A stretch of 64,000 nucleotides of DNA from Prevotellaceae bacterium (GTDB lineage Bacteria > Bacteroidota > Bacteroidia > Bacteroidales > Bacteroidaceae): the NCBI GenBank assembly GCA_030531085.1, contig JAUNOM010000002.1, positions 11,094-75,093 on the forward strand, in the 5' to 3' direction. The notes beneath the pieces are model-generated. The model was not told the origin of the DNA. It made no database searches and saw only the letters and a list, made by a program, of their open reading frames with translations. Both the position numbers and the translations under genes were made by a program. Positions 8,863-58,200 of this stretch are shown here, piece after piece (position 1 is the stretch's first letter; the number at the start of each line of letters is the position of its first letter).

Positions 8863-11607
8863 TTACTCCCAGACATCTCTTGTCAACTGACTTCTGTCAA
8901 ACAGCAGCACGCCGTCTATCTGATGCACAACAGCATTTGATGATGATGACAGGGTGGCTGTCTCTGATCCTGGAGTGCCCATGATCCAGTACTCACGGCA
9001 TATCCTGTTGTACAGACCGCCAGTCTTCATCACATTGCGTGTGTTGCCCAGCTGGTCCCTCACTGTATAGTTGCTGCCGTCAGCAGAAACTGTGAAGGAG
9101 AAGTATCTGTTGTTAGCCGGGTTCAGCTTGGCAGACTCGTACTGCTCGCCGCTGACATTGTCGCCGCCGATACACACCGCGCGGTCCTGTATATGGTAAC
9201 GTACAAAGTCATGTATGCGGTTCGCTATCTTGGTCATCAGCACCTCGTTCTCTGCCTCGCTCGCCTTGTTGTACTGATCCCATGTAGGCAGGCAGCCGTC
9301 ATCTATCAGTTCCTGTATAGCCTCGTCAGTAGGCACATACACAGTGTAGTTATAGTTATCGAAGAGCCTGATGTTTTTGTTCTCGAGATAGTTTGCACAC
9401 CTGTAGGAACCGTCTTTCGCAGAGAGGAAGTTGTCAGCAGACTCATCACCGGCAAGAAGACTGTAGAACAGCTTGCACTTGCTTCCCGGCTTCTCACTCT
9501 CCTCCTTCAGCAGCTGGTACACAGACTTGCTGGCTGTCATAGGCATAGAAACGATCTTGTCTGCGTCATTCTCGGAGCATACGCCGTATGTCACACCGTT
9601 ACCAGTGCTGCCCATGTCGTATGTATGCTCTGCAGCCACGCTCACGGTGTTGCCTGTCTCCATCTGCCATCCGCCCTCAAAGTGCATGGCACCGTTATTC
9701 CTGTAGGCCTTCATGATGCTGCCGCCCTTGGTCTGGTAATATGTCTTGCCGGATGTGATGTCACTGACAATGATGCTGTTGTCAATGATGTCATACAGAC
9801 GGTTGCTTATCACCGAAGAGGACAAATTCCTTGAAGTGGACATATCCACACTGACATTGCCGGCATCGTCCACAGTACACTTGTATGATGTGCCTGTTAT
9901 CACCTCATTGTCAAATGTGAACTCGAAGAGGTTCTGCTGTGCCATACCGTATGAGCATGGATCTATATAGCGGAACGTCTTCTGGCCCGGACGCAGTGGG
10001 TTCAGGGAAGGGGTAACGTTATATGGTATCACGACAGAGAAGCGTGAGTCCATGGCGTTAAGGTAAGGGGTGAAGTCCATAGCCGCAGACTGTGTCATGG
10101 ATGTACCCGTAGCTGTAGGATAAGTACCTGTTATGGCATTGTATGCTATAAATGTTTTTGAATCCCTCTGGTGCAGTGCAGGAGCTATGACAGAACGGTA
10201 TATCACAGGGGCGAACACTCTGTTCACCACATATACCACACCGTTGCATCCCATATAGCAGGCCTTGATGTCACCCTTGGTTATTCCAAGCTGTCCCTGT
10301 CCGTCATCAAGCACAGAGGAGAACTTGGAAGGCACGGACTCGACAAAGGACTCCTGCATATTCACGTTTATCAGCTTGGCGAGTGTGGCGTATGGCACAT
10401 TCTCCCAAGTGCCGTATTGCTCACGCAGACCTGCGCCGCCGCCATTCTGCCACCAGTCCTGCAGAGCCTCGTCGGTAGGCACGATCATCGCACCCGCGTC
10501 ATAGTGCATATCCTTCGTCTGGCTGTTGTAGATGTACTGGTTCCATCCTGGGTCAAACTTCAGCACATCCGTCTCCAGCAGGCTTACATCGCTGTTAGGC
10601 AGAGTCAGCAAGCGTCTGCGGCCCACGGCACCGTTGAAGTATCTCAAGTTGTACACAGAGTCCTGCGTATCAAAGAGCGTACGGTATTCCCTCAAGTCAT
10701 TACCCGTTACAGGATAAGGGCAGGAATATCTCTTCAGGAAGCTGGCCCACAGCGATGTCTCGGGCAGGCTGTTGATAATCTCCGCCATATTCTGCGTGCC
10801 GTCAATGACTCCGTCTATCACATATATGTATCCGTTCTTACACGTCTGCTCGGAGCTGATGACCTTCTTGCCGTTAATCCACGAATCCGAAATGGAGTTG
10901 GACTGTCCGTTGGTTATAATGCTGAGGTCCTCGTCAGTGATGCTGTTCTTTGCCATGAACTCGGGCAGGAAGTGTATCATCGGTGCCGATGAGGCATCCT
11001 TGAATATCTTTATGTCCTGTCCCTTGTAACGGCGCGCGGCCCATGCGTCCTTCTCCGGAGAGCCAAGGGCATTCACTGGCATATCCACCACCCTGTAGGT
11101 CGGGATGGAGTCATAGATGGACGCCGATGACTCACGGCGCATACACATTCCCTCCTGCGGAGGATTACCGCTGACATTGGACATCAGCTCCAGCAGATAG
11201 GCATTGTTAATCATGGAATTGTTGAACAAGGCCCTCTTCTGTGCCAGACTCAGCTGATCGTAGGTGACACCTTTGGCACGGAACCACTCCTCATAGACAT
11301 CGTCCGGCACAGCAAACACTGTCTTGGAACCAGTCTTTGACAATGTCTCGCTATAGCCGAGATCGTCAATGAGGCGCAGCGTAGTGCTGAAGGTCCTTGT
11401 CGTACCGTCATCCACCGTGATGCCATCCTGCAGACGCTCACTGATGGAGTTACCAAGCCACTCCGGCTGTCCCGTAAGAATGTCCTTGTCACATGACTGC
11501 ATCATGCCGGCGCCAAAGAGGAACCCACAAGCAGCAAACATGTTCACGGTTGCCCTACGGCCCCATGAACCACGTGCGTTGTCCTTCTTCGCATCTTTTT
11601 TTCTCAT
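8863..11607 (-). CDS. Multi-fasciclin domain lipoprotein
   Basis: Lipobox MQSC; FAS1 motifs KTVFAVPDD, KNGYIYVIDGVI, NGVVYVVNRV, YTVYVPTDEA, NAVVHQIDGVL. Confidence 0.85.
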   Translation of the reverse strand: MRKKDAKKDNARGSWGRRATVNMFAACGFLFGAGMMQSCDKDILTGQPEWLGNSISERLQDGITVDDGTTRTFSTTLRLIDDLGYSETLSKTGSKTVFAVPDDVYEEWFRAKGVTYDQLSLAQKRALFNNSMINNAYLLELMSNVSGNPPQEGMCMRRESSASIYDSIPTYRVVDMPVNALGSPEKDAWAARRYKGQDIKIFKDASSAPMIHFLPEFMAKNSITDEDLSIITNGQSNSISDSWINGKKVISSEQTCKNGYIYVIDGVIDGTQNMAEIINSLPETSLWASFLKRYSCPYPVTGNDLREYRTLFDTQDSVYNLRYFNGAVGRRRLLTLPNSDVSLLETDVLKFDPGWNQYIYNSQTKDMHYDAGAMIVPTDEALQDWWQNGGGAGLREQYGTWENVPYATLAKLINVNMQESFVESVPSKFSSVLDDGQGQLGITKGDIKACYMGCNGVVYVVNRVFAPVIYRSVIAPALHQRDSKTFIAYNAITGTYPTATGTSMTQSAAMDFTPYLNAMDSRFSVVIPYNVTPSLNPLRPGQKTFRYIDPCSYGMAQQNLFEFTFDNEVITGTSYKCTVDDAGNVSVDMSTSRNLSSSVISNRLYDIIDNSIIVSDITSGKTYYQTKGGSIMKAYRNNGAMHFEGGWQMETGNTVSVAAEHTYDMGSTGNGVTYGVCSENDADKIVSMPMTASKSVYQLLKEESEKPGSKCKLFYSLLAGDESADNFLSAKDGSYRCANYLENKNIRLFDNYNYTVYVPTDEAIQELIDDGCLPTWDQYNKASEAENEVLMTKIANRIHDFVRYHIQDRAVCIGGDNVSGEQYESAKLNPANNRYFSFTVSADGSNYTVRDQLGNTRNVMKTGGLYNRICREYWIMGTPGSETATLSSSSNAVVHQIDGVLLFDRSQLTRDVWE

Positions 11608-12006: not shown

Positions 12007-15000
12007 TTACTTCACAAGAACAGTCTTGCTTGTCACATTGCCCTCAGCGTCTGCGGTGACAACGATGTTGACACCCTTCTGCAGAGATGTGTGCTCTACG
12101 CCGTCAGCAGTGTAGATCTTAACTGACTTAACCTCGCCAGCGCTCTCTACGCCCTTGACATCGTTCCAGCCATTCTCCTCGGCAGAGCTGTTTGTGCCAA
12201 GATACATGAGACGGAAGTTGTCCATTGCTACCCAGACATTGTCCTTATCACAACGTACACCTACGCGGAGCTTACCGTCTGTAACCTTGATGTTCACACC
12301 GTTTACATAACGGCCCTGATCGAAGTAAGCTACGGAGCTGACAACGTCATTCGGCATATTGTACTTAACACCATCGTTGTTTGTATACTGCTGCTCACTG
12401 CCCTGTCCTATAGGCTCTGTGCTTGCATTGATGTCACTTGCACGGTTCTCTATAGCATGCTCAACAGTTGTCTCGCCTGATGTAGCGTAGAAGACAGCTG
12501 GTGAAGCCACTCCGGCTACATAGTCATCATATCCCTTCTCGGTAGAGCAGAATGCGTTAACGCTTACCTGATATGTACCGTTAGGAACAACGATGTCCTG
12601 ATAGAGGTCTATCTTCTTGTGATACCATTCTGCAGCGAGTGCAGCCTTCTGAGTGTCGCTGTTACCGAAGCTGCCATCGAAGCCCTGCCATCCCTCTGAA
12701 GAGTTAGCGCCGTCCTTCTCGAAGCCGGCAGACAGTATCAGAGCTGTCATGTCAACAGGCTCTGCGTCTGTAGCGTTCTCATAGCCTGCAGGCAGTGAGA
12801 GCTTGTAGCGGCATTCAGCGAGCTTGGCGCTGATTTCCTTAGCCTCCGCATTGGTCTTGCCCTCAAGGGTAACCTCTGCAAGATAGTTAGCGACTTCAGC
12901 CTTCACATCGTCAGCGGCAGCAGACTCTGCAACAATGTTGTTGAGGTCGTCAATATTGGTCTGGATAGCTGCGAAAAGTTTAACAGACTGCTCGATAGAG
13001 TCATTATTACTAAAGATAGCAGCAAGAGCCTTAAACATCTCAACACCGTCAGCAGTTGCTATAGCGCCATTACCATTCTGGATCAGAGTCTCTGTGTTGC
13101 TCTTCACATCTGTACCCATAAGCTGTGTGAGATCTATAGCACCGATAGCCTTCTCCAGCTCCGGCTGCAGAATCTCTGCCTTATAGCCCTGATATACAAG
13201 ATTGAAGCGTGTGAAGATAGCCCAAGAGTCACCCTCCTGTGTTGTGGTGCCCTTCATGCCGATACGGAGAGGATCCCCCTTCTTTGCAACAAGACCGAAT
13301 GCTGACACTTTATAAGCATCATGATCAAATGCGAGACCTGCATCAGCCATATTGTTTGGATATGTGTACTTCACGCCATTCACCTCTGGACCTGTATAGT
13401 AGTCACCTGTGTAATATTCAGATTTCCCTTCAGCTGTACATGGTACACCATACTCGAATACGTTGGCCAGCGGAGTCTTGTTATCATTCAGGTATACGTA
13501 TGCCGGTGTCTCTGGCACTGTCGGCTTTGGCAAACCTGTTGCCTCATCAAAGTAGAACTTCCATGCGTTGTCACCACGTCCACGGCGGTAGAAGCCCTGT
13601 ACAGAAACCTCATAACAACCTACAGGCGCACCCTCAATCTCCTGCCAAATATCGAAGTCTGAACTGTTCCATGCCTCAGCACACTTTGCACCAGAATTAG
13701 CAGCAACGTTACCGCCGTTGCCCTTATGGCCCCAGCCATCCCAGCCAGCAGAGAAATCACGGTTCTTTATTCTGTCGGTAAAGTCTGTACCAGGTGTGAT
13801 GGAGTTCTGCTGTGCATTCTCACGCATTTCCTTAACTTTGGCAGTCTCGGCAATAAGCAGTTCTGTAGTGAGCTCTCTTGCCTCAATTATCATATCTGCC
13901 TCAAGATCTACATAGTCTGCAAGTTCTTCAACATCGGGACCCTGATAATTGTCATTTCCTGTAATGCTCTTAGCCATTTCCAGCTCTTCCTGATAAGCCT
14001 TCCATGCGGCGATATTAGCCTCTACGTCAGCCTGTGCAGCCTCAACGGCAGCCTTGTTCTTCATCACATCCTCGTAAGTAGCGGCTGTGGCAGCAGCTTC
14101 CCTTACATGGTTATACTCCTCAAGTGCAACAGTGCTAACCAGCACATCGTCAGCGTTGTAAACAGGTGCCTGTGAGAGCACGTCATCATTCAGCAGCTGA
14201 TAAGCGTCAGCGCCGTTACCGTAATACTTCAGACCGAAGTTGTCAAAGATAGACCAGTCATTATTTTCCTTTGTATCCTTCTTGACACCTATTCTCATAG
14301 AGCCTTCAGTCACGGCGAACATTACCTTATTGTTCTTATAATAGCCCGCATCGAAGTAATTGGTAGCACCCTTCATGGAACTTGGCACTGTATAGTTTTG
14401 GCCATCCTTTACGTATGTCTGGGTCTGTCCGTCTGAAACATCATTCTTCTCTGGCTCAATACCAGCATAAATGCTCAAGATAGAACTTGTAAGGGTATCA
14501 TTCTGCGCCTCATCAGCCTTGATGTTTGTGGCATACAGCTTTGCAGCTCCACCTCTATGGTTTACGAGGTCGTCCCATGAGCCAGAGTAACGATAGAAGC
14601 CATCAGCAGTAAGCGCCCACACACCGTTAGGAACATTGTCAAACTTCTGCCAAGTATCGTATGTCTTGTTATAATGCTCCGCACAAGTACTTGTTGTACC
14701 ACCTGCACCGAACTTATCTCCAGACCAACCATCGAAATTGCCAATGACATCGAATGTGCGGTTCTCTATCATAGAGCTCATGTCAGCAGGTTCTGCAGCA
14801 GTGCCCTTGCTTGCCCTAAAGTCAATTATAGCCTGCTTTACATTAGCCGCAGCCTCACCAAGAGCCTCTGCTGTAGCAGCCTCGTCAGCATAGACAGCCT
14901 CGTACTGTGCCAGTCCCGGTACGCCAGCCTCGTCAGCCTCTACCAGTACAGCCCACAACTTCTTCAGAGCGTCATTTGTCGCGAGGATGTCAGCACGGAG

Positions 15001-15552
15001 TGCAACGTTTGTTGTGTACTCCTCTTCTGTAACAGCATACCATGTGTAGCTGAAGTTCTCCCTGTCCTGTGGATAGAGGAACAGCTGCTTCTCTGTCTGG
15101 TCACCTTTCTCTGCACCGAAAACGCCTTCAGCGGCTGCAGGGTTAGAAATCACGAATGTACCGTCAGCGGCCTGCTCAAACACCCAGGCATCAACATTGG
15201 CACCATTGTTATTATCTACATAGATGTCGCTTGGACCACCTGCGAACATCTTACGGTACTCGCGGAATTTCTCCACAGAGTCTCTGATGGCATACATACC
15301 ACCTAAATCCTCGACCTTCACCTTGAAGCCTTTCGCCATATTGACACAGGCACGTGTGTCGTATGGCTGGCCACCCATGAAATAGGACTGTGTACCGACA
15401 TTGTAAAGATACTGTACTGTAGCATTATCTGTAGCCAATGTTGCCTTAGCGGGATCAGGAATAGGGAGAACCCTTTCCGTAACCGTTAGAGCGGCCTGTG
15501 ATGATGCAACTGCAAACATACCTCCACAAAGAAGTAATTTTTTTAGTTTCAT
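12007..15552 (-). CDS. Large secreted protein with three repeated beta-rich domains, helical linkers and a T9SS-type C-terminal domain
   Basis: Signal peptide; three repeats of D(M/F)(S/T)xxI...F...AE.(W/Y)...D..Q...P.G.(W/Y)....(G/A)F; C-terminus VKIYTADGVEHTSLQKGVNIV...KTVLVK. Confidence 0.75.
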   Translation of the reverse strand: MKLKKLLLCGGMFAVASSQAALTVTERVLPIPDPAKATLATDNATVQYLYNVGTQSYFMGGQPYDTRACVNMAKGFKVKVEDLGGMYAIRDSVEKFREYRKMFAGGPSDIYVDNNNGANVDAWVFEQAADGTFVISNPAAAEGVFGAEKGDQTEKQLFLYPQDRENFSYTWYAVTEEEYTTNVALRADILATNDALKKLWAVLVEADEAGVPGLAQYEAVYADEAATAEALGEAAANVKQAIIDFRASKGTAAEPADMSSMIENRTFDVIGNFDGWSGDKFGAGGTTSTCAEHYNKTYDTWQKFDNVPNGVWALTADGFYRYSGSWDDLVNHRGGAAKLYATNIKADEAQNDTLTSSILSIYAGIEPEKNDVSDGQTQTYVKDGQNYTVPSSMKGATNYFDAGYYKNNKVMFAVTEGSMRIGVKKDTKENNDWSIFDNFGLKYYGNGADAYQLLNDDVLSQAPVYNADDVLVSTVALEEYNHVREAAATAATYEDVMKNKAAVEAAQADVEANIAAWKAYQEELEMAKSITGNDNYQGPDVEELADYVDLEADMIIEARELTTELLIAETAKVKEMRENAQQNSITPGTDFTDRIKNRDFSAGWDGWGHKGNGGNVAANSGAKCAEAWNSSDFDIWQEIEGAPVGCYEVSVQGFYRRGRGDNAWKFYFDEATGLPKPTVPETPAYVYLNDNKTPLANVFEYGVPCTAEGKSEYYTGDYYTGPEVNGVKYTYPNNMADAGLAFDHDAYKVSAFGLVAKKGDPLRIGMKGTTTQEGDSWAIFTRFNLVYQGYKAEILQPELEKAIGAIDLTQLMGTDVKSNTETLIQNGNGAIATADGVEMFKALAAIFSNNDSIEQSVKLFAAIQTNIDDLNNIVAESAAADDVKAEVANYLAEVTLEGKTNAEAKEISAKLAECRYKLSLPAGYENATDAEPVDMTALILSAGFEKDGANSSEGWQGFDGSFGNSDTQKAALAAEWYHKKIDLYQDIVVPNGTYQVSVNAFCSTEKGYDDYVAGVASPAVFYATSGETTVEHAIENRASDINASTEPIGQGSEQQYTNNDGVKYNMPNDVVSSVAYFDQGRYVNGVNIKVTDGKLRVGVRCDKDNVWVAMDNFRLMYLGTNSSAEENGWNDVKGVESAGEVKSVKIYTADGVEHTSLQKGVNIVVTADAEGNVTSKTVLVK

Positions 15553-15768: not shown

Positions 15769-15879
15769 TTTTAGTTCTTAGTTATGAATTATGAGTTGTG
15801 GGTTAGGCCATCAGTGGAATGCGGCTAATAACTCATAATTCATCACTCACAACTCATCATTGATAATTAAGAACTAAAA
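15769..15879. repeat. Heptamer-period imperfect palindrome A
   Basis: TTTTAGTTCTTAGTTATGAATTATGAGTTG ... AACTCATAATTCAT...TAAGAACTAAAA. Confidence 0.85.
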
Positions 15880-15887
15880 ACTACCAC

Positions 15888-17180
15888 TCAATCCTTCAGA
15901 CACGCAAGCGGGATAACCTTTACACCGTCCGGGCGAGTGTATGCCATGCTGCCGCCTGTAAGTATAATTAGCAGGTTCGGCTCACGTAATGGCACCTGTT
16001 TCTCCGTCTTGTTATATTCCTGTATGAGTCGTTTTATCTTCAACAGGTGTTCAGCCCCCTCCTCTATCTCGCGACTTCCCACTTTGCATTCAATGAGTGC
16101 ATATCTGCCATCTTCAAGATGTAGCACCAAATCCGCCTCTAAACCGTAGCGGTCACGATAATATGATATATGACTGTTGAAGTCTGCCGTGTAAGCCTTT
16201 AGATCACGTACACACATCTGTTCAAATATGAACCCGAATGTCTTCAGTTGTGTTTCCAGTGCTTCCGCATTCACTCCCATGGCGGCCACAGCAATGGAAG
16301 GGTCGGAGAAACAACGCTTGGGTATGCTGCGAATGGCTGTCTTGCTACGTATGGCAGGACACCAGGCATCTATATCCTGAATAACAAAGAGTTTCTCTAA
16401 TGCCCTAACATAGTCGTCAAATGTATCCATGGACAGTGTAATGTCTCCTGATGCTGTAACATCCGCAAGGATACTGGTTTTCTTGGCTAATGTGCTTATG
16501 TTACGGGCATACGAACGTATTATCTGTCTGGCGACCTTTGGATTACGTTGCTTCCTGTCAATGGTGGAGATGTCGTTGTCACAGACACTGTTGACATAGT
16601 CCTTTGCTATCAGCTGACTGGCCTTATCGTTCAACTGAAGCGTTGCCGGCCAACCGCCACGACAGGCGGCCTTTATCAACTTGGGGATGTCAAGACCACT
16701 GGATGCACCATCTATATTATAATCAGGATTGTCAAACAGTTCATGTACAGAGACCTCACCAGAAGACTCTTTAGATTCCCATAAGCTCATTGGGTACATT
16801 CTCATTCTGGTGATGCGCCCAGTACCAGTGTGATATATTCTATCCCTATCCACTGTATTACTACCAGTAAGGATATATTGACCTGGTGCGCCACCAGTAT
16901 TGTCTACCGAAGTACGCACGGCATCCCATAACGTAGGTACATCCTGCCACTCGTCAATCAGACGTGGCTGCTTTCCTTTCAACAACAATGAAGGCATGGT
17001 GGCAGCCGTGGCAAGATATTCATCACGTTTATCAGGATCCTGTAGCTTAATGACACTCTTAGCCTGCTGTTCGGCAGTGGTTGTCTTACCCGTCCATTTG
17101 GGGCCTTCTATCAGTACTGCGCCGAACGCCTCAAGCCTTTCTTGCAGCATTGTATCCGCCACTCTTGGTAAATACCTCAT
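15888..17180 (-). CDS. AAA-family ATPase with DUF4143 (C-terminal PD-(D/E)xK-like) domain
   Basis: Walker A GPKWTGKTT; Walker B RLIDEWQ; YILTGS; C-terminal YYRDRYGLEADLVL...ALIECK. Confidence 0.9.
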   Translation of the reverse strand: MRYLPRVADTMLQERLEAFGAVLIEGPKWTGKTTTAEQQAKSVIKLQDPDKRDEYLATAATMPSLLLKGKQPRLIDEWQDVPTLWDAVRTSVDNTGGAPGQYILTGSNTVDRDRIYHTGTGRITRMRMYPMSLWESKESSGEVSVHELFDNPDYNIDGASSGLDIPKLIKAACRGGWPATLQLNDKASQLIAKDYVNSVCDNDISTIDRKQRNPKVARQIIRSYARNISTLAKKTSILADVTASGDITLSMDTFDDYVRALEKLFVIQDIDAWCPAIRSKTAIRSIPKRCFSDPSIAVAAMGVNAEALETQLKTFGFIFEQMCVRDLKAYTADFNSHISYYRDRYGLEADLVLHLEDGRYALIECKVGSREIEEGAEHLLKIKRLIQEYNKTEKQVPLREPNLLIILTGGSMAYTRPDGVKVIPLACLKD

Positions 17181-17212
17181 AACTAAAAAATGTTTTAGAA
17201 GTTATTTTGCTG

Positions 17213-17286
17213 CAAAGATAACAATTTTTCTTCAAACCACAAAGCCCAATCGGTGTTTTTGTGGCATTTCAATCGGTGTTTTTGTG
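17213..17286 (-). promoter_or_regulatory. -7 box TATCTTTG with two upstream 17-bp direct repeats
   Basis: CAAAGATA at 17213-17220; CAATCGGTGTTTTTGTG at 17247 and 17270 (23-bp period). Confidence 0.65.
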
Positions 17287-17308
17287 ATAATTATTAGTTA
17301 TGAGCGGC

Positions 17309-17398
17309 TTTTAGTTCTTAGTTGTGAATGATGAGTTATGAGTCACCTACAACCTATAACCTATAACTCATCATTCATAACTCACAACTAAGAACTAA
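17309..17398. repeat. Heptamer-period imperfect palindrome B
   Basis: TTAGTTCTTAGTTGTGA (17311) / TCACAACTAAGAACTAA (17382-17398) is a perfect 17-bp inverted repeat; near-identical to palindrome A. Confidence 0.88.
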
Positions 17399-17403
17399 CA
17401 TCA

Positions 17404-18312
17404 TCACTGTCTCTTCGCCCTTGACTGTGTCACCAGCCATACACCAGAGAAGACAAGCACTACGGCGAGGAGCTGCGGCCACTGCAGGACACTGATGCCG
17501 AGAATGATGCTGGCAGCAACGGAAACGATGGGCTGCACGTAGTTATATACGCTGACTACGGTAGGCCGCAGTGTACGCTGGCCCACCATGGTGAGAATAT
17601 AGCTTATGTATGTACTGAAGAATACAACGTATGCCACCTCCCATATAGTGGAAACAGGCACTCCGCCCCACTCTATCGCCGCGACATGAGAGGCCGTGAA
17701 TGGTGTTATCATCACTGAAGCCCACAGAAACATCCATTTGTTGACGGTAAAGACGGAATATCGCTTTATCAGTGGATTGAACAGGGCGAGGTAAAGTGCG
17801 AACGAGAACTGTGCGCCAAGACACAGCAGGTCTCCACGTATGTCGCCCACCTTGTCAGACACCGCATTGGCACTGGTGAGAATGAGTATCAGGGCGCCGC
17901 TGCATCCCATCAGGACGCCACCGGCCTTCTTGCCCGTCAATGGCTCTCCAAGTATGATGGCTGACAGAACCATGGCGAAGATAGGCATGGAAGTGGTTAC
18001 GATAGAGGCGTTGACAGGAGATGTGATGCTAAGGCCGATGGTATAGCAGCACTGATTGAATACAAGTCCGAACAGTCCTGCACCGATAAAGCGCAGCTTG
18101 TCAGACAGTGGTACGTGCTCATGCTTGACAAAAAGGGATGTAATCCAGAAGAGGCACGCTCCTCCCACCACACGGAAGGTCACCATATCGATGCCCGTTA
18201 TGCCGTGGGTCATGGCATCCTTGCCGAGAGGTGCCATCAGTCCCCAAAAGGCGCAGGCCATAAACATGGATACGTGCGCAAGGATACGTTGATTTGCAGA
18301 TGTGTGTTTCAT
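17404..18312 (-). CDS. DMT/EamA family transporter
   Basis: 302 aa, ~10 hydrophobic segments, two EamA-like halves (FWG..., GDLLCL, YNYVQPIVS). Confidence 0.9.
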   Translation of the reverse strand: MKHTSANQRILAHVSMFMACAFWGLMAPLGKDAMTHGITGIDMVTFRVVGGACLFWITSLFVKHEHVPLSDKLRFIGAGLFGLVFNQCCYTIGLSITSPVNASIVTTSMPIFAMVLSAIILGEPLTGKKAGGVLMGCSGALILILTSANAVSDKVGDIRGDLLCLGAQFSFALYLALFNPLIKRYSVFTVNKWMFLWASVMITPFTASHVAAIEWGGVPVSTIWEVAYVVFFSTYISYILTMVGQRTLRPTVVSVYNYVQPIVSVAASIILGISVLQWPQLLAVVLVFSGVWLVTQSRAKRQ

Positions 18313-18344
18313 TGTTGTGTTATTCTGAATAGTTGGCTTTTTGA

Positions 18345-18551
18345 GGGTTGTGGGTTGTAGGTTTTGGGTTGTTGGTCTGTCCTCTGTGGCTTAATTGATG
18401 GTTGTTGGTTTGGGGGTATGGGTTGTGGGTCTTGTCCTCTGTGGCTTAATTGGTGGTTGTTGGTTGTGGGTTTTAGGTTGTGGGTCTGTCCTCTGTGACC
18501 TGAAACCGAAAGACCTTCAACCTAAAACCTACAACCAACAACCCCACAAAA
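18345..18551. repeat. Heptamer-period G/T-rich then C/A-rich palindrome C, with an internal ~55-bp triplication
   Basis: GGTTGTG-type units on the left, CCTAAAA/CCTACAA units on the right; GGTCTGTCCTCTGTG at 18374, 18428 (one extra T) and 18483. Confidence 0.85.
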
Positions 18552-18557
18552 CGTGCA

Positions 18558-19790
18558 TCACCAGATATGATCCTTCGGGAAAGGCTGCCCTCCCCATGCC
18601 TTTATCTGTGTCCATGGCTGTGCCGGACAGGTCCAGAAGTCATGGTCTGCCGGCAGTCCCAACGGCAGCAGCACCTCTGACGTGATATACAGAGAGCCGT
18701 TATTAGTGTACCAGTCCGCCACTTCCGGCTGTCGTCCGCAAAAGCCTATCGTCAGGTACCCCTTCTCATTGTAATTACCCGGAGCGTCCCACATACGGTG
18801 CATCACCTTTGTAAGCGCCGCACGCACCTGTCCATTGCTTAAATCAGACGGCAGAGTCTGGTACCATGCCATCAGTGACAGCGGCTGCATTGCAGCAAGG
18901 CGATATGGTATGCTGCGTCCGAAGACGGGGAAAGTGCCTTCCGGCGAGATGAACCTCTCAAGGATTATGCTGAACTTCTGACAGCGTTTCAAGGCGCGGT
19001 TGTAAAAATCCTTATAGTTTATATTCCAGCCATACCCCCGCTTGTCGCGCATGGTGGCGAGCGTTTCGAGGTACATGGCGTGAAAGACATAGCTGGAGTA
19101 ATAGTCGAAGGCGAAGGTACCCTGTCCATCACTGTACCATCCGTCACCAACATACCATTCCTCCACCTTGCGTACCGCGCCATTGACACGGTACTGGTCA
19201 TAGGACGCACCTGCCTTAGCCAGGAAACTCTCTATGGTGGATGCGAACAGCAGCCAGTTGGTATACGGAGGCTCCACACGGCGCAGGCGTGTGAACTCGT
19301 CTATGTAACGTGCTTTTGTAAGGGAGTCCAGCGGCATCCACAAGGCGTCATATCCTCTGATAAGGCTCTCCGCTATATATGCGGCATCCACAAGGGGCTG
19401 CCCTTCCTTGCGCCACAGCAGATAGTCCTTGGACTGCGGGTCCACTGCCTGCGCATAGCTTTTCAAGGCCCATTCCCTCAGTTGTCTGCGCTGCTGTCCT
19501 TCCGCCGTATCGTCATCGGGCAGTGACAGCCATGGGGATATACCTGCCATGAGACGGCCGAAGCATTCCATATAGGTGACACGCTTGTCGCGACTGTCAA
19601 AGGAGGGACTGACCTCTATCTGCATCTCCGTGGACAATGCACCACGTGACATCGGCTCCAGAACAGGAGACGCCATGCGCCATGCCTGCTGCGCCCAGTA
19701 CTCGCGGTCACTAAGCGTCTGCACGGCTTTTTTCTTCGCCACTGATGATAGTGGCAGTGCAAAGAGTAATAAGAATAGTAGGTGTTTCAT
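18558..19790 (-). CDS. DUF2264 family protein (glycoside-hydrolase-like, GH154-related)
   Basis: Signal peptide; ECFGRLMAGISPWL, QPLVDAAY, NWLLF, YVGDGWYSDG, GRSIPYR, YTNNGSLY. Confidence 0.8.
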   Translation of the reverse strand: MKHLLFLLLFALPLSSVAKKKAVQTLSDREYWAQQAWRMASPVLEPMSRGALSTEMQIEVSPSFDSRDKRVTYMECFGRLMAGISPWLSLPDDDTAEGQQRRQLREWALKSYAQAVDPQSKDYLLWRKEGQPLVDAAYIAESLIRGYDALWMPLDSLTKARYIDEFTRLRRVEPPYTNWLLFASTIESFLAKAGASYDQYRVNGAVRKVEEWYVGDGWYSDGQGTFAFDYYSSYVFHAMYLETLATMRDKRGYGWNINYKDFYNRALKRCQKFSIILERFISPEGTFPVFGRSIPYRLAAMQPLSLMAWYQTLPSDLSNGQVRAALTKVMHRMWDAPGNYNEKGYLTIGFCGRQPEVADWYTNNGSLYITSEVLLPLGLPADHDFWTCPAQPWTQIKAWGGQPFPKDHIW

Positions 19791-19894
19791 TGGGGGTTAT
19801 TGGTTTTTGGTTATGGGTTATAGGTTGGAGGTTGCGGGTTGTGGGTTGGAGATAAAGGAAAGACCAAAAACCTAAAACCCAAAACCAACCAACC
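19791..19894. repeat. Heptamer-period palindrome D
   Basis: GGTTATT GGTTTTT GGTTATG GGTTATA GGTTGGA GGTTGCG GGTTGTG ... AAAGACC AAAAACC TAAAACC CAAAACC. Confidence 0.85.
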
Positions 19895-19900
19895 GTTGTC

Positions 19901-20851
19901 CTATTCTTTAAACAAATCCTTGATGCCTCCGATGGAGCCAAGGAGGTTAGTGGCCTCGTATGGCAGGTATACAGTCTTGGACTTGTCACCGGCCGCGATG
20001 TCCTGCAATGCCTGTATGTACTTCTGCGCAAGGAGATAGTTGGCAGGGTTGGTGCTCTTGCCTACCGCTTCCGTTATCTTGTCAATGGCTATCGCCTCCG
20101 CCTCCGCCTTGCGGATGCGTGCCTGCGCCTCACCCTCCGCGTGCAGTATCTCCTGCTGCTTGGCGGCCTCCGCACGGTTTATGGCAGCGGTCTTCTCCGC
20201 TTCCGACTGTAATATCACCGCTTGCTTCTCACCCTCTGATGTCAGGATTGTGGCACGCTTGTTACGTTCCGCCTGCATCTGCTTCTCCATAGCCTGCAGA
20301 ACCGTTGCCGGCGGGATGATGTCCTGCAGCTCCACGCGGTTCACCTTTATGCCCCACTTGTTGGTTGCATCATCAAGGACAGCACGCAGCTTGGTATTTA
20401 TGGTGTCGCGCGATGTGAGGGTCTGATCCAGTTCCATCTCACCTATTATATTACGTAGGGTGGTCTGCGTCAATTTCTCTATGGCGTTAGGCAGGTTACT
20501 GATTTCATAGACAGCCTTGAACGGATCCACTATCTGGAAATACAGCAGAGCATTTATCTCCATCTGTATGTTATCCTTTGTAATCACGTTCTGGCGGTCA
20601 AAGTCATACACCTGCTCTCGCAAGTCTATGCGGTCGGTATACACATAACGTCCGCGTGTCATGCCTACCATAACCTTTGCCTGATCTATAAAGGGGATTA
20701 TGATATTGACACCAGGCTCAAGGGTATTGTAATAACGTCCAAGACGCTCTACAATCTTTGTCTCTGACTGTGGGATAATGATGATGGTCTTTTTTAAGAC
20801 CACTGCTGCCAGCACTACGATGACAACAAGAAATACTGTTACAAATTCCAT
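19901..20851 (-). CDS. SPFH/Band 7 (paraslipin/QmcA-like) membrane protein
   Basis: IVERLGRY, VITKDN, WGIKVNRVELQDI, MEKQMQAERNKRA. Confidence 0.93.
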   Translation of the reverse strand: MEFVTVFLVVIVVLAAVVLKKTIIIIPQSETKIVERLGRYYNTLEPGVNIIIPFIDQAKVMVGMTRGRYVYTDRIDLREQVYDFDRQNVITKDNIQMEINALLYFQIVDPFKAVYEISNLPNAIEKLTQTTLRNIIGEMELDQTLTSRDTINTKLRAVLDDATNKWGIKVNRVELQDIIPPATVLQAMEKQMQAERNKRATILTSEGEKQAVILQSEAEKTAAINRAEAAKQQEILHAEGEAQARIRKAEAEAIAIDKITEAVGKSTNPANYLLAQKYIQALQDIAAGDKSKTVYLPYEATNLLGSIGGIKDLFKE

Positions 20852-20868
20852 GTTTCTAATTAATTATT

Positions 20869-20952
20869 TGGTTATGGGTTTATGGTTGTGGGTTATGGGT
20901 CATTCCCTAAAGGCCTAAAGACCTAAAACCCACAACCTATAACCTACAACCC
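20869..20952. repeat. Heptamer-period palindrome E
   Basis: GGTTATGGGTTTATGGTTGTGGGTTATGGG ... AAAGACC TAAAACC CACAACC TATAACC TACAACC. Confidence 0.85.
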
Positions 20953-21384
20953 TCACAAAGTTCTCACTGTGATGACGATGCTTTCTCTTGACACCACTGT
21001 TACCGTTGTGCCTACTGGTATCGTCTCGTTATGTTCACTTACGGCGCGCCATTCGTCTCCGTCTATCTTTACATAGCCATGTCCGCCCGGTTGTATAGTC
21101 TCTATCACTTGTCCTGTTCTGCCTATTAAGGCATCGGCATTGCTACGCCGTCCATTGCCACGCAGTTTCTTGACGAGTGATGGACGCAGGAAAATAACGC
21201 AAAACACTGATGCGGCGGCCATCAGCAACACCTGCATCCATAATGGCATACCAAGGAGCGCGGCAACAAGACCTACAAGGGCACCAAGCGCAAAGCACAG
21301 CACGTAGAGGTCACCGCTGCCCAACTCCACAAGGAGACATAAGAAGCTGACTGTAAGCCACAGCAGCCATAGATGGTTAATCAT
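20953..21384 (-). CDS. NfeD family membrane protein (SPFH partner)
   Basis: Hydrophobic N-terminal half, then NADALIGRTGQV...GYVKIDGDEWRA OB-fold. Start reassigned to ATG 21384 because the longer start runs through repeat F. Confidence 0.88.
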   Translation of the reverse strand: MINHLWLLWLTVSFLCLLVELGSGDLYVLCFALGALVGLVAALLGMPLWMQVLLMAAASVFCVIFLRPSLVKKLRGNGRRSNADALIGRTGQVIETIQPGGHGYVKIDGDEWRAVSEHNETIPVGTTVTVVSRESIVITVRTL

Positions 21385-21506
21385 TGTGGTTGTTGTTTTT
21401 TTGGTTTTGGTTTTTGGGTTGTGGGTTATTGGTTTGAGGTTTTGGGGTTGTGGGGCATTATCTAAAGACATAAAACAAATAACCTAAAACCTAAAACCAA
21501 CAACCA
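21385..21506. repeat. Heptamer-period palindrome F
   Basis: GGTTGTG GGTTATT GGTTTGA GGTTTTG... / AAAGACA...AATAACC TAAAACC TAAAACC AACAACC. Confidence 0.85.
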
Positions 21507-21508
21507 CT

Positions 21509-21985
21509 CTACTCCTTCTCTATCAGAGCCACGGCGTATGCGGATATGCCTTCCTGACGACCTGTAAAGCCGAGGCGCTCTGTTGTGGTGGCCTTTATTG
21601 ACACATTGTCCTCGTCCGTGTGCATCACAGCGGCCAGGCAACGGCGCATATCATCAATATGCGGATTGAGCTTGGGACGTTCCGCACATACAGTGCAGTC
21701 TATATTGCCAAGCGTATAGCCCTTAGACGCTATGAGGTCAATGGTCTTGGCAAGGAGTATCTTCGAGTCTATACCGTCCGTCTCCTCCGCCGTATCGGGG
21801 AAGTGATAACCTATATCACGCATATTGGCAGCTCCCAGAAGCGCATCGCATATAGCATGGATCAGCACGTCTGCGTCACTGTGTCCAAGAAGCCCATGTG
21901 TGTGTGGCACGAGTATGCCACCAAGCCACAGTGGGCGGTCGTCCACAAGCCGGTGGACATCGTATCCGAAACCTATTCTTGTCAT
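21509..21985 (-). CDS. ispF: 2-C-methyl-D-erythritol 2,4-cyclodiphosphate synthase
   Basis: RIGFGYDVH, GHSDADVLIHAICDALLGA, SIKATTTERLGFTGRQEGI. Confidence 0.97.
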   Translation of the reverse strand: MTRIGFGYDVHRLVDDRPLWLGGILVPHTHGLLGHSDADVLIHAICDALLGAANMRDIGYHFPDTAEETDGIDSKILLAKTIDLIASKGYTLGNIDCTVCAERPKLNPHIDDMRRCLAAVMHTDEDNVSIKATTTERLGFTGRQEGISAYAVALIEKE

Positions 21986-21987
21986 AT

Positions 21988-22092
21988 TTGGTTGGTTTGG
22001 GGGTTATGGGTTGTGGGTTATTGGTTTGAGGTTATGTTGGGGCTTTCACCTAAAACCAAAGACCCAAAACCTACAACCAAAAACCAACAACC
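21988..22092. repeat. Heptamer-period palindrome G
   Basis: GGTTATG GGTTGTG GGTTATT GGTTTGA GGTTATG ... AAAGACC CAAAACC TACAACC AAAAACC AACAACC. Confidence 0.85.
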
Positions 22093-22096
22093 TTCC

Positions 22097-23137
22097 CTAC
22101 CGTCTCTTAACTTTATTAATTATATAGGCGCTTATCCTGCTGACAATCCATGCCAGAGGCAGAGTCAGCACCAGGGTTATCAGGAAAGTGGGCCAATAGC
22201 CAAGCCCGTGGCGCTGCAGAGGTTTTAATACAAACTCCACGTGTATCAGATACATTTCAAGGGATATGCCTCCCACCCACGACAACACCGCATTAGGAGA
22301 CAGGCGGCACTTCACATTGCGCAGACGGTGGAACACCTCCGACATTATAAGTACTGTAGTAATGGCGAGGGGTATGTACAGCATACGTTCCACATAAAGC
22401 GGAAAGCGGCCGTGACGCATCTGCTCAAGCCACACGCAGGCTCCAAGGCTGACGGCAAAGAAGATGCCTACCATCCACCATGCCTGACGGTCCACCACAC
22501 ACTCTCTACGCACCAGCTCCGCACAGTTTATGCCGAGAAAGAATATCGGCACACGGCTCCAGAATATCTCTATATGTCCTACGGCCACATGGACCGGTGT
22601 GACATACTGCACTATGATGCACCACATAAGCGGCAGCACCACCAGCCAGCGGTATACGGGATGCCGGCGCACCAGTTCCATATAAGGCGGTGCAAAAACA
22701 TACAGCATCATCGTTGCCGGCACATACCAGAACGTCAACTCGTCATGCAGCCAGAAGTCCCAGTTAAACAGCACATCGCCCACAAGGTCTATGCCACTGT
22801 CTAAAGCCGCCACTCCCGTGCCGCCAAACGGCAGGGCATACGACGGTGCCGAGGGGTTAAAGTGACTGACATAAAATGCCCCTGCCACAAGAAGCCACGC
22901 AGGATATATGCGCAGGGCACGGTTCCGGTAGAAGCGCCGCCAGTCCTGACTCTTCATCCATGAGTACCATAGTCCCACGCCAGACAGGAAGAAGAAGATG
23001 TCCACACCGAGGTTTCCCATGCGGCGGAGGCCAAAGAAGGCACCGGAGCGTGGAGAATAGACGTGGAAGAGCATCACAATTATAATAGCGAAGCCCATCA
23101 GCTCACCTCGATAGCGTGATATATTGGAGAGGGACAT
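22097..23137 (-). CDS. Acyltransferase family 3 membrane protein
   Basis: LMGFAIIIVMLFH, GVDIFFFLSGVG, RALRIYP, SLEMYLIH. Confidence 0.88.
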   Translation of the reverse strand: MSLSNISRYRGELMGFAIIIVMLFHVYSPRSGAFFGLRRMGNLGVDIFFFLSGVGLWYSWMKSQDWRRFYRNRALRIYPAWLLVAGAFYVSHFNPSAPSYALPFGGTGVAALDSGIDLVGDVLFNWDFWLHDELTFWYVPATMMLYVFAPPYMELVRRHPVYRWLVVLPLMWCIIVQYVTPVHVAVGHIEIFWSRVPIFFLGINCAELVRRECVVDRQAWWMVGIFFAVSLGACVWLEQMRHGRFPLYVERMLYIPLAITTVLIMSEVFHRLRNVKCRLSPNAVLSWVGGISLEMYLIHVEFVLKPLQRHGLGYWPTFLITLVLTLPLAWIVSRISAYIINKVKRR

Positions 23138-23330
23138 TTTGGTTGTTTGGTGGTTTTTGGTTGTGGGTTGTGGGTTTTTGGTTGTTTAGTTGTTTGGTTA
23201 TGTGGTGGGTTTATGGTTTTGGGTTGTAGGTTTAAGGTTCTTGGTTGTGGAATATTCCTTAAACGCCAAAGACCTAAGACCTAAAACCAACAACCACTAA
23301 CCATTCCGAGGCCAACAACCCATAACCAAA
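23138..23330. repeat. Heptamer-period palindrome H
   Basis: About 13 GGTT-containing 7-mers, then AAAGACC TAAGACC TAAAACC AACAACC. Confidence 0.85.
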
Positions 23331-23348
23331 CGAGAGACCTACACACTG

Positions 23349-23427
23349 CAAAGTTACACTTTTTTAGCGTAACCGCCAAATTTTTAATGTTGTTTTTGGT
23401 TATTTAGGAAATATCTTTGTAACTTTG
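23349..23427. promoter_or_regulatory. Divergent -7 promoter boxes (TAACTTTG on both strands)
   Basis: CAAAGTTA at 23349-23356 (minus) and TAACTTTG at 23420-23427 (plus, 5 nt before the ATG). Confidence 0.65.
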
Positions 23428-23889: not shown

Positions 23890-25716
23890 GTGATGCCGCT
23901 ATTGTTCAGACCTATCTTCACTCGCGCGTTCCTGTTCCTGTACCTGTTGGGAATAACAAGCAGCATCATCACAGTGCCGCCATACAAGGATGCGCATATC
24001 TACAGCAATGCGCCCCTTGAGCTGTTCCTTGACGTGTACATAATATGCGCACTGCTATGCCTTGTGCCCAAGACACTGTCCCTTATGGGGCATAAGGTAC
24101 CGCTAAGGGCCGCTGCCAAGGCTGTTGTATACGCCATAGCGTATCCCCTTTACATCATAGACACCTTCTGTCTGGTAAAGTTCGGCAGCACCATCAACCC
24201 CTCCATGCTGCTGCTTGTAGGCGAGACGAACGGCAACGAGGCCAGTGAATTTCTTTCAAGCTACATAACACCGGACATCATTATCAGCGATGTGGGATGG
24301 ATACTGCTCATAGCCATAGCACATATAATATGTGCCGTGACATGGAAACGGCTGTTCCGGACGCTGCGTCTGCCACAACTGCCACCGCCGCCACACAGCA
24401 CCACGGGCAGGATGATATGGCACGCCGCCGGCTCACTGCCCGTTGCCGCCATGCTGTTATGGTCTGCGGCAAGCAGTTATGACAACAAGATGCTGTACAG
24501 GCAGATAATGTCACGTGAGACCATCGGCGAAGTGGAGCATGACCTCGCCGTCAAGCCGCGCACGGAGATGTACCAGCCCGCCATGCGCCTGCTGTTCTCC
24601 ATTTATAGCAACAGGCTTATAGCCAAGCAGCTCATACGCCTTACGGAGACCTCAAGGCACATCACCGTGGACTCCTGCGACATCAGGAGCCGTAACATTG
24701 TGCTCATCATCGGCGAGAGCTTCAACAAACGCCACGCACAGCTGTACGGTTACGACAAGAACAATATGCCCAACCAGATGCGTATGCTCAAGAGCAGACG
24801 GCTGACACGCCTTGATGATGTGGTGAGTCCATGGAACCTCACCAGCTTCGTCTTCAAACACCTGATGACAACATACTGTGTAGGCGACAAAGGTGACTGG
24901 TGTGACTATCCGCTCTTCTGCCAGATATTCCGCAAAGCCGGCTATCAGGTCAACTTCCTCACCAACCAGTTCCTCCCACAAGCTAAGGAGCAGGTGTACG
25001 ACTTCAGCGGAGGCTTCTTCATAAACGATCCTGAAACGAGTGCAGCACAGTTCGATGTCAGGAACGACCGCCTGCATATCTTCGATGAAGGGTTGCTGCA
25101 TGACTTCGATCACCTTTTCCCTGACTCTGTAAGGGCGCACGCCCAAAAGCCGCAGCTCACCATTTTCCACCTCATGGGACAGCACGTCAACTACCGCATA
25201 CGCTGTCCCAAGTCCAAGAAGAAATGGAAGGGCGGAGACTATCCCGACGACCTTGACCTGCCGGCAAAGAAGCTGGAGGTGCTGGCGGACTATGACAACG
25301 CCGTGTGGTACAACGACTCCATTGTGAACCAGATAGTGCGGCGCTTCAAGGATGACGATGCCATAATAATATACTTCGCAGACCACGGCGAGGAAGTGTT
25401 CGACAAGGGCGCGCGCCATTTCTTCGGCAGGATGCACAACGCTGACATCACACGCCGTCTGGCGGACGAGGAGTTCCGCATACCAATGTGGATATACTGC
25501 ACAAGGAAGTACGCCGCCGCACACCCCGACATCGTAAAGGCCGTGCAGGGGGCCAGGAGGCAGCCCTTCATGACCGATGCCATGTCCCATCTGCTGATGG
25601 GACTGGCCGGAATACACTGCCATTACTACAATCCGCGCTACGACCTGCTGTCACCGGACTATGACAGCAGCCGGAAACGCATACTCAAGAACACGGCTGA
25701 CTACGACAGCCTGTGA
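23890..25716 (+). CDS. Phosphoethanolamine transferase (EptA/CptA-like, sulfatase fold)
   Basis: N-terminal TM helices; IVLIIGES, FHLMGQH, YDNAVWYND, YFADHGEE. Confidence 0.88.
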   Translation: MMPLLFRPIFTRAFLFLYLLGITSSIITVPPYKDAHIYSNAPLELFLDVYIICALLCLVPKTLSLMGHKVPLRAAAKAVVYAIAYPLYIIDTFCLVKFGSTINPSMLLLVGETNGNEASEFLSSYITPDIIISDVGWILLIAIAHIICAVTWKRLFRTLRLPQLPPPPHSTTGRMIWHAAGSLPVAAMLLWSAASSYDNKMLYRQIMSRETIGEVEHDLAVKPRTEMYQPAMRLLFSIYSNRLIAKQLIRLTETSRHITVDSCDIRSRNIVLIIGESFNKRHAQLYGYDKNNMPNQMRMLKSRRLTRLDDVVSPWNLTSFVFKHLMTTYCVGDKGDWCDYPLFCQIFRKAGYQVNFLTNQFLPQAKEQVYDFSGGFFINDPETSAAQFDVRNDRLHIFDEGLLHDFDHLFPDSVRAHAQKPQLTIFHLMGQHVNYRIRCPKSKKKWKGGDYPDDLDLPAKKLEVLADYDNAVWYNDSIVNQIVRRFKDDDAIIIYFADHGEEVFDKGARHFFGRMHNADITRRLADEEFRIPMWIYCTRKYAAAHPDIVKAVQGARRQPFMTDAMSHLLMGLAGIHCHYYNPRYDLLSPDYDSSRKRILKNTADYDSL

Positions 25717-58009: not shown

Positions 58010-58200
58010 CTGAAGACGGTCCTCACGCAGCTAAAGACGGCCCACAGTGAAAAAAGGACGGCCTTTAGGAATAAAATGATGGGCCTTGGAGAAAAATGGA
58101 TGGGCTTTTTGAAAAAAATGGATGGCATCCACAGAAAGCTGTAGACCATCCACAGAAATTTTTAGAGCGTCCACAGAATGCTATGGAGCGTCGACAGACG
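58010..58200. repeat. Degenerate 21-bp-period tandem repeat
   Basis: GA(C/T)GG at 58015/58036/58057/58078/58099; C(C/G)ACAGA at 58129/58150/58171/58192. Confidence 0.65.

What the first reader, a model, noticed from the sequence alone, without database searches (positions are those of the whole stretch)
15769..23330. Eight consecutive intergenic spaces filled by telomere-like, 7-nt-period imperfect palindromes
Seen: every intergenic gap from 15.8 to 23.3 kb carries a G/T-rich arm of degenerate heptamers (GGTTGTG, GGTTATG, GGTTTTG; AGTTATG type in the first two). A complementary C/A-rich arm follows (CACAACC, TAAAACC). The gaps are 15769-15879, 17309-17398, 18345-18551, 19791-19894, 20869-20952, 21385-21506, 21988-22092 and 23138-23330. 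In copies C-H the right arm opens with a conserved AAAGAC(C/A). The unit drifts along the run: copy B contains both unit types. I saw no such arrays elsewhere in the window, and they even separate the conserved SPFH-NfeD pair. Inference: a locally spreading element, or a repeat-writing/gene-conversion mechanism acting on one transcription unit. The arrays could form long mRNA hairpins or G-quadruplexes (GGGTT runs), or act as recombination sites for gene capture. Heptamer STRR repeats of cyanobacteria are the nearest established analogue.
Basis: partly seen in the sequence, partly recalled or inferred. Interest (0 to 1): 0.75.

Follow-up and report, generated by a model that had tools for sequence, protein, structure and literature searches.

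The report
Gene-less heptamer hairpins filling an operon
Eight neighbouring gaps between genes of a gut bacterium each hold a mirror-image pair of 7-letter repeat runs, and these are likely the emptied end-pieces of a small gene cassette seen intact in related species, which would give long-unexplained bacterial 7-letter repeats a testable origin.

Summary
All eight gaps carry a G/T arm followed by a complementary C/A arm, and independent samples carry them too. They are not local: the genome has 63 such sites, G arm first in 37 of 37 two-armed sites. The run of eight is the genome's longest (next is 3). Orthologous gaps in relatives are mostly short, or hold arrays of other repeat words. Related samples differ by 7 or 14 bases inside arrays. 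The same layout is published for Xanthomonas and TAACTGA repeats. In this genus, 104 of 155 four-helix-bundle (TIGR02436) genes sit between such inverted arms, and the repeat word tracks the protein clade. A close relative has an intact cassette with the word of copies A and B. Against this: this 81%-complete genome has no such gene, and no cassette in the genus was found with the word of copies C-H. G-quadruplexes, telomere kinship and general local unit drift are not supported. The scan reported the cassette link before on other genomes. Best reading: emptied cassette arms that change length by slippage (0.55). How they move is untested.

The parts
15769..15882 (.). Copy A: a-word inverted arms (AGTTRTG/AATKATG); G/T arm 15773-15807, C/A arm 15827-15882; ends a few nt after the AAA_14 stop codon on the mRNA
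   Evidence: bridged without difference by a contig of run X1
15888..17180 (-). AAA_14 + DUF4143 ATPase gene between the directly repeated copies A and B; possible cargo
   Evidence: Pfam; A/B alignment and GC3 0.47; 113 differences in about 1455 nt in runs X2/X3 against 28 in about 1025 nt for EamA
17309..17398 (.). Copy B: a-word arms with three g-like units on the inner side of the C/A arm; follows the EamA stop codon
17404..18312 (-). EamA/DMT transporter gene (host)
18345..18551 (.). Copy C: g-word (GGTTDTD); G/T arm in three copies of a 55-nt unit, each ending in a GGTC cap, then one C/A arm
   Evidence: the stretch is 110 nt instead of 206 in run X2
18558..19790 (-). DUF2264 gene (host)
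19791..19894 (.). Copy D: g-word arms; orthologous SPFH-DUF2264 gap is 10 nt in L043
19901..20851 (-). SPFH/Band 7 gene (host)
20869..20952 (.). Copy E: g-word arms in the NfeD-SPFH gap; 14 nt longer in run X1, one 7-nt unit inserted in run X5
20953..21384 (-). NfeD gene (host)
21385..21506 (.). Copy F: g-word arms running up to the NfeD start codon; 7 nt shorter in runs X2/X3; orthologous gap 6-33 nt in four relatives, 191 nt with related words in L218
21509..21985 (-). ispF gene (host)
   Evidence: TIGR00151 above cut-off
21988..22092 (.). Copy G: g-word arms; acyltransferase and ispF overlap by 4-8 nt in G153 and G166
22097..23137 (-). Acyl_transf_3 gene (host)
23138..23330 (.). Copy H: g-word plus 8-nt GGTTGTTT units, likely in the 5' leader of the operon
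23349..23356 (-). Promoter-like TAnnTTTG motif (recalled Bacteroidota -7 consensus) just upstream of copy H; predicted start of the transcript that carries copies H to B
   Evidence: inference

Best explanation
The eight arrays are inserted pairs of inverted heptamer arms, and they are likely gene-less copies of the arms of a small cassette whose full form carries a four-helix-bundle gene (TIGR02436/PF05635) at stop/start junctions. Shown: the arms are absent from most orthologous junctions, have a fixed polarity (G/T arm outer-left, C/A arm outer-right, GGTC cap inward in about half of the g arms), and vary between samples by whole units. Shown in relatives: full cassettes have the same layout and each protein clade keeps its own word. 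Inferred: this lineage received at least three words (a, g and an 8-mer); the gene was lost or never co-inserted; empty arms spread preferentially to nearby junctions and into existing arrays; unit number then changes by replication slippage, which erases local similarity. Predicted: on the mRNA each copy folds into a 25-40 bp hairpin that RNase III may cut, as it does for the Coxiella 23S intervening sequence. The enzyme and chemistry of movement are unknown; no step of movement was tested.
For: Short or overlapping orthologous gaps: acyltransferase-ispF -8 and -4 nt vs 111; ispF-NfeD 6 and 33 vs 124; SPFH-DUF2264 10 vs 110. G arm before C arm in 37 of 37 two-armed sites. 104 of 155 distinct four-helix-bundle genes of the genus share at least 2 inverted 9-mers between their flanks, against 12 for mismatched flanks and 14 in direct orientation. 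For cassettes at non-homologous junctions the words match in 36% of 300 pairs with proteins at least 60% identical, 8.7% of 437 pairs at 50-60%, and at most 0.3% of 7050 pairs below 50% (pairs are not independent). The a-word pattern occurs in 4 of 300 other genomes of the genus; three of them are among the four best SPFH matches. In one of these, G219, the only four-helix-bundle gene found has a-word arms on both sides (L348). Arms ending in GGTCTTT enclose such a gene in 2 of 68 GTDB loci (L164, L176). Length differences of 7 and 14 nt inside arrays. The Coxiella IVS has tandem heptamers before its S23p gene and is cut by RNase III (PMC4990558, passages).
Against: No four-helix-bundle gene was found in this genome by TIGR02436, PF05635 or a 155-sequence profile; the genome is 81% complete and 7 of 61 contigs end in an arm. 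None of the 155 cassettes has the g-word of copies C-H; the nearest are 8-mer words (profile similarity at most 0.40). All 5 tested genomes rich in the g-word have four-helix-bundle genes (8 in all), none with g-word arms. 66 of 68 GTDB loci with the g-word arm have no such gene inward within the DNA held. A pattern search for g-arm plus gene start in 400 Bacteroidia genomes gave 2 hits, neither such a gene. 0 of 22 junctions of this genome whose orthologues carry a cassette elsewhere have arms. Loops hold no gene remnant (1-121 nt). In one lineage arms appear stepwise around an unrelated hairpin.
Confidence: 0.55

Rival explanations
1. The arms are self-sufficient simple repeats. They arise and grow by polymerase slippage, the second arm is made by template switching, and words spread by recombination between arrays. 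Four-helix-bundle and other small genes are passengers captured between arms, not the source.
For: About 55 junctions carry arms with no cassette gene found in the genome. Unit-length polymorphism. A series at the NfeD-SPFH junction with no arm, one arm, two arms and nested arms around one unrelated hairpin (L235, L034, L223, L221). GxxExxY genes also sit between inverted arms in 2 of 4 loci (L457, L458). Slippage was proposed for heptamers in the papers read.
Against: It does not explain why words track the protein clade across unrelated junctions, the fixed G-then-C polarity (37 of 37), or the inward GGTC cap. Most genomes of the genus lack both words (g in 7 of 400, a in 4 of 300).
Confidence: 0.27
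2. The arrays are kept by selection as RNA regulatory elements: RNase III sites or stabilising hairpins that tune operon segments, with the C/A arm acting as a translation enhancer. This concerns maintenance and can coexist with the best explanation.
For: Significant hairpins. Arms start a median 8.5 nt from the stop codon at 24 co-oriented sites. All six g copies lie on one predicted transcript. MacGregor proposed translational regulation for TAACTGA repeats (PMC4679880, abstract).
Against: Orthologous operons do without them. Words are not conserved between lineages. For g copies the own partner arm fits no better than another copy's. The arm before the start codon is longer in 11, equal in 1 and shorter in 12 of 24 sites. 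None of the listed terminator-like sites lies in an array (10 found). Rehm et al. found no regulatory role.
Confidence: 0.12
3. The arrays act through G-quadruplex formation.
For: GG and GGG runs in copies C-H. The Xanthomonas GGGAATC repeats form G4 in vitro (PMC4692102, abstract and discussion).
Against: No canonical four-G3 motif in any copy; A and B have 0-1 G3 runs. Other lineages use words with few or no G runs at the same junctions. A complementary arm competes for the G strand.
Confidence: 0.03
4. The arrays are an assembly artefact.
For: Single letters in copy F differ from two other samples, and E and the H region differ by 14 nt from a near-identical sample, so some copies may hold local assembly errors.
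Against: Contigs of runs from other studies (X2, X3, X5) bridge the same junctions with arrays or inserts of similar length. A sister-species contig has a related array at ispF-NfeD (L218).
Confidence: 0.02

Closest known systems
Xanthomonas GGGAATC and Nostoc GGGGA(C/T)T heptamer repeats (Rehm et al. 2015, PMC4692102; abstract, passages and discussion read)
   Same: Intergenic heptamer runs of about 4 units; convergent inverted pairs (70 in Xcc, 75 in Xac); G-rich arm on the sense strand within 50 bp after the stop and on the antisense strand before the start; length variation between close relatives; function unknown.
   Different: Different and more degenerate words, three words in one genome, an inward GGTC cap, no canonical G4, and a run of eight consecutive junctions. 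The paper has no mention of four-helix bundles or intervening sequences.
TAACTGA repeats of Beggiatoaceae, cyanobacteria and Bacteroidetes (MacGregor 2015, PMC4679880; abstract, introduction, passages and Bacteroidetes section read)
   Same: The a-word read on the C/A arm (TAACTCA, TAACTAA) is one base from TAACTGA; forward orientation just before start codons, reverse after a stop; relatives with the same neighbours have shorter gaps without repeats.
   Different: Mostly single direct arrays there (one inverted case in BOGUAY); here paired arms are the rule. No mechanism or protein partner was identified there.
ORF-bearing 23S rRNA intervening sequences (Coxiella IVS with S23p; PMC4990558, passages read) and TIGR02436/PF05635 genes
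   Same: Hairpin made of terminal inverted repeats, tandem heptamers with strain-variable copy number upstream of a four-helix-bundle gene. Cassettes of this layout are common in this genus.
   Different: These copies lie between protein genes, not in rRNA, and carry no ORF; excision from RNA was not shown.
REP/BIME and MITE elements (features recalled; only search listings seen)
   Same: Short intergenic palindromes, many per genome, clustered, near stop codons.
   Different: No fixed sequence, no GTAG/CGTC end seen, no Y1/RAYT transposase found in the genome, no target duplication seen.
Cyanobacterial STRR heptamers (recalled)
   Same: 7-nt period, intergenic.
   Different: Different words and phylum; not compared by a call.

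Membership tests
Intergenic inverted heptamer repeats (Rehm 2015 type) | Period-7 tandem units, about 4 or more per arm | tested here: met
   period 7 gives 121 regions genome-wide against 5-57 for periods 4-12 (a few rows are N gaps)
Intergenic inverted heptamer repeats (Rehm 2015 type) | G-rich arm on the sense strand after the stop, C-rich arm before the start; convergent pairs | tested here: met
   37 of 37 sites; median 8.5 nt from the stop
Intergenic inverted heptamer repeats (Rehm 2015 type) | Dispersed through the genome, length-variable between relatives | tested here: met
   63 sites; 7- and 14-nt differences
Intergenic inverted heptamer repeats (Rehm 2015 type) | Four G3 tracts able to form G4 | tested here: not met
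   no canonical motif in any copy; in vitro folding not testable
IVS-like four-helix-bundle cassette | Inverted tandem-repeat arms at a stop/start junction | tested here: met
IVS-like four-helix-bundle cassette | TIGR02436/PF05635 gene in the loop | tested here: not met
   loops 1-121 nt; no gene found in the 81%-complete genome. The copies are therefore not filed as cassettes, only as likely derivatives.
IVS-like four-helix-bundle cassette | Repeat word shared with an intact cassette | tested here: inconclusive
   met for the a-word (L348, 1 of 155); for the g-word 0 of 155 in the genus and 2 of 68 GTDB loci, both Pyrinomonadaceae with a related word
IVS-like four-helix-bundle cassette | Excision from RNA by RNase III | not testable with these tools
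   only assembled contigs were available; contigs of RNA run X5 bridge E, F, G and H but also the divergent promoter region, so DNA may be present
REP/RAYT | Y1 (RAYT) transposase in the genome | tested here: not met
   PF01797 not found (incomplete genome)
Known RNA families (Rfam) | Match above the gathering score | tested here: not met
   0 matches in the window
Intrinsic terminator | Short GC stem followed by a U tract | tested here: not met
   none of the listed sites lies in an array; 10 found against 6.6 +/- 2.7 in shuffles

The most novel reading that the evidence does not exclude
Bacterial intergenic heptamer and octamer repeats are the non-autonomous copies or footprints of a mobile cassette driven by four-helix-bundle (Avd-fold) proteins, each protein clade with its own word. 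The cassette targets stop/start junctions through the transcript, and the six g copies C-H are the trail of one element walking along one mRNA.
Probability: 0.2. Interest if true: 0.88.

Novelty: new variant of a known kind. Interest (0 to 1): 0.55.

Why it matters
Heptamer repeats in bacteria have been described repeatedly with no origin or function, and TIGR02436 is a large family with no known function. If the arms and the protein are two parts of one mobile cassette, both questions become testable with one experiment. This locus is a useful case because orthologous junctions exist in empty, one-armed, two-armed and nested states, and because eight junctions in a row are filled. The link was not found in my six paper searches, apart from the heptamers noted in the Coxiella IVS. 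The library lacks most subscription journals.

Tried and rejected
Four-helix-bundle gene in this genome: not found. GxxExxY and Y1 transposase: not found. One reverse transcriptase exists on contig C39 (best NCBIfam match group II RT, far below cut-off), about 28 kb from the nearest array among small hypothetical ORFs; no link, so no support for 'repeat writing'. Rfam: none. Local unit similarity: not found overall (only 4 near pairs for the a-word). Copy-specific arm co-evolution: not seen for g copies. Longer arm before the start codon: no bias. Cargo in g-word loops of sister genomes: short loops, and one ordinary glycosyltransferase-like ORF between arms of two sites. Cassette junctions of relatives mapped onto this genome: 0 of 22 have arms. 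No cassette was found at the operon's own junctions in the loci. The g-arm plus gene-start pattern in 400 Bacteroidia genomes gave no cassette; it only catches the 'VWQ' clade. The 155 cassettes are the best-scoring of 537 matches plus those, so weaker clades are under-sampled. Joints in the read tables between arrays were not used: they are short and explained by other copies of the repeat. Run X1 may be the source sample and is not counted as independent. The genomic-language-model preprint 10.64898/2026.10.21.760802 has no mention of heptamers (term search only). No supplements were read; those of the Rehm and MacGregor papers list repeat neighbours and may bear on the cassette link.
Full report
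Setting. The window lies on contig C21 of a 2.37-Mb, 81%-complete genome. The genes on the - strand are an acyltransferase, ispF, NfeD, SPFH, DUF2264, EamA, an AAA_14/DUF4143 ATPase and a 1181-aa protein without a family.

The observation. Each of the eight gaps has a period-7 G/T arm followed by a C/A arm. On the mRNA strand all eight fold better than controls that shuffle each half separately: z -2.8 to -8.0, at most 1 of 100 as good. Copies A and B use the a-word (AGTTRTG/AATKATG). C-H use the g-word (GGTTDTD). B has three g-like inner units and H has 8-nt GGTTGTTT units. AAAGAC is present in 6 of 6 right arms C-H. It is the mirror of a GGTC unit that closes the inner end of 36 of 64 G arms and 28 of 54 C arms genome-wide. 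There is no Rfam match, no canonical G-quadruplex motif, and none of the listed terminator-like sites lies in an array.

Not an artefact, but variable. Twelve public runs from 6 studies hold the stretch or part of it; I laid five. Run X1 is nearly identical in coding pieces (0-1 differences in each of six long pieces) and may be the source sample. It bridges A and G without change, but is 14 nt longer across E, has 14 gap letters in the piece spanning H, and has 4 substitutions in F. Runs X2, X3 and X5, from other studies and about 2-4% different in host genes, bridge the same junctions. F is 7 nt shorter in X2/X3, E has one TGGGTTA unit inserted in X5, and C spans 110 nt instead of 206 in X2. 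Unit number therefore changes fast, as slippage predicts.

Genome-wide family. A strict scan gives 139 arms in 63 sites; the looser scan gave 166 arms against 2 in a 1.2-Mb Markov control. In 37 of 37 two-armed sites the G arm precedes the C arm. At 24 co-oriented sites the arm starts a median 8.5 nt from the stop codon. Sites cluster: 25 of 55 occupied junctions (of 1725) have an occupied neighbour, against a random mean of 3.3 and maximum 14. The window's run of 8 is the longest; the next is 3, and random draws reach at most 4. Neighbouring sites do not share a word more than chance (21 of 36 pairs, expected 19.0), and near g sites are no more alike than far ones. The one sign of local copying is the outer cap of A and B, found 5 times, all within 23 kb on C21. 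Promoter-like TAnnTTTG motifs (recalled consensus) at 23356, 17220 and 15685 on the - strand suggest three transcription units. The six g copies would lie on the first, and the a copies at two 3' ends (inference).

Insertion at junctions. In relatives the same gaps are short: acyltransferase-ispF -8 and -4 nt (here 111), ispF-NfeD 6 and 33 (here 124), SPFH-DUF2264 10 (here 110). Of 73 NfeD-SPFH junctions from other genomes (80 rows less 6 refetched and our own), most are under 65 nt. Five score 0.76 or more for period 7 with other words, and two more show longer-period arrays by eye. Metagenome loci add a sister species with an 8-mer plus g-word array ending in GGTCTGT at ispF-NfeD (L218), and a lineage with no arm, one arm, two arms and nested arms around one unrelated hairpin (L235, L034, L223, L221). 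The g pattern occurs in 7 of 400 other genomes of the genus and the a pattern in 4 of 300.

Link to four-helix-bundle cassettes. I raised this from recall; earlier scan notes from other genomes then stated the same link and the word-per-clade idea, which I tested. TIGR02436 is found in 150 of 200 sampled genomes of the genus. Of 155 distinct full-length genes, 104 share at least two inverted 9-mers between their flanks, against 12 for mismatched flanks and 14 in direct orientation. Among the 130 with a measurable word, cassettes at unrelated junctions share words when the proteins are close (36% of 300 pairs at 60% identity or more) and almost never below 50% (at most 0.3% of 7050 pairs; not independent pairs). 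G219, third-best SPFH match among 300, has 11 a-pattern hits, and its only such gene is flanked by a-word arms. Two Pyrinomonadaceae loci have the gene inward of a GGTTTTT/GGTCTTT arm. The Coxiella IVS has tandem heptamers of variable number before its S23p gene and is cut by RNase III (PMC4990558).

Against the link. This genome has no detectable gene of the family, although it is incomplete and 7 of 61 contigs end in an arm. No cassette of the genus has the g-word that makes up six of the eight copies (0 of 155). The five g-rich genomes tested have 8 such genes, none with g arms. 66 of 68 GTDB g-arm loci have no gene inward. None of 22 junctions that hold a cassette in relatives has arms here. 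GxxExxY genes also sit between inverted arms in 2 of 4 loci, so the arms may be the mobile part and the genes passengers.

Mechanism. Shown: insertion relative to orthologues, fixed polarity, clustering, unit-length polymorphism, the cassette layout and word-clade association in relatives. Inferred: descent of these copies from cassette arms (0.55), local spread, slippage. Predicted and untested: RNA hairpins in vivo, RNase III cutting, any role of the protein in movement. The main rival is self-sufficient repeats that capture small genes (0.27). Regulatory selection (0.12) may add to either. G4 (0.03) and artefact (0.02) are unlikely. The AAA_14 gene between the directly repeated copies A and B diverges faster than EamA in X2/X3 (113 in about 1455 nt against 28 in about 1025) and has low GC3. 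It may have entered by recombination between a copies, but its paralogue on C40 has no arms.

Comparison and verdict. The layout matches the Xanthomonas GGGAATC repeats point by point except G4 capacity (PMC4692102), and the a-word is one base from TAACTGA (PMC4679880). As repeats these are a known kind in a new genus. The tie to four-helix-bundle cassettes was not found in six paper searches, but here it is direct only for two of eight copies. I rate it a new variant of a known kind, interest 0.55.

Noticed in passing
window 27941-28003 and 44513-44583; genome-wide: A separate ~22-nt repeat family with core GATAGCTWTTRC: 93 hits in 66 clusters in the genome, 7 clusters within 400 nt of a heptamer arm, some sitting between arms (contigs C11, C38, C57).
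   Followed up: partly
window 58050-58198: Two adjacent 21-22-nt tandem arrays of different sequence; not examined.
   Followed up: no
genome G000, 28 places incl. window copy H: A third word, the 8-mer RGTKGTTT, forms arrays, often at the same sites as a or g arms; a similar word flanks cassettes L111 and L311.
   Followed up: partly
L458 (G493:C63:297-623), L110, L111, L113, L119: One junction (sdhA-sdhB by my recall of the protein ends) holds a four-helix-bundle cassette in several genomes and a GxxExxY gene between inverted arms in another; L457 is a second armed GxxExxY gene. A second hot spot maps to G000 C31:15944-16277 with 16 cassette loci.
   Followed up: partly
window 15888-17180: AAA_14/DUF4143 gene has its own promoter-like motif, short tandem repeats upstream (17251-17290, with one more unit in run X3) and diverges about three times faster than EamA between strains.
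   Followed up: partly
L355 (G000:C39:113156-113791): A 424-aa reverse transcriptase, best match group II RT far below cut-off, among small hypothetical ORFs; class not determined.
   Followed up: partly
window 23890-25716: Phosphoethanolamine transferase-like gene (CptA/EptA family, all NCBIfam matches below their cut-offs).
   Followed up: no
window 12007-15552 and 8863-11607: Two large proteins (1181 and 914 aa); the first has no Pfam or NCBIfam match, the second was not scanned.
   Followed up: no
window 60850-61319: 66-nt tandem repeat, probably a leucine-rich-repeat coding region (recalled resemblance).
   Followed up: no
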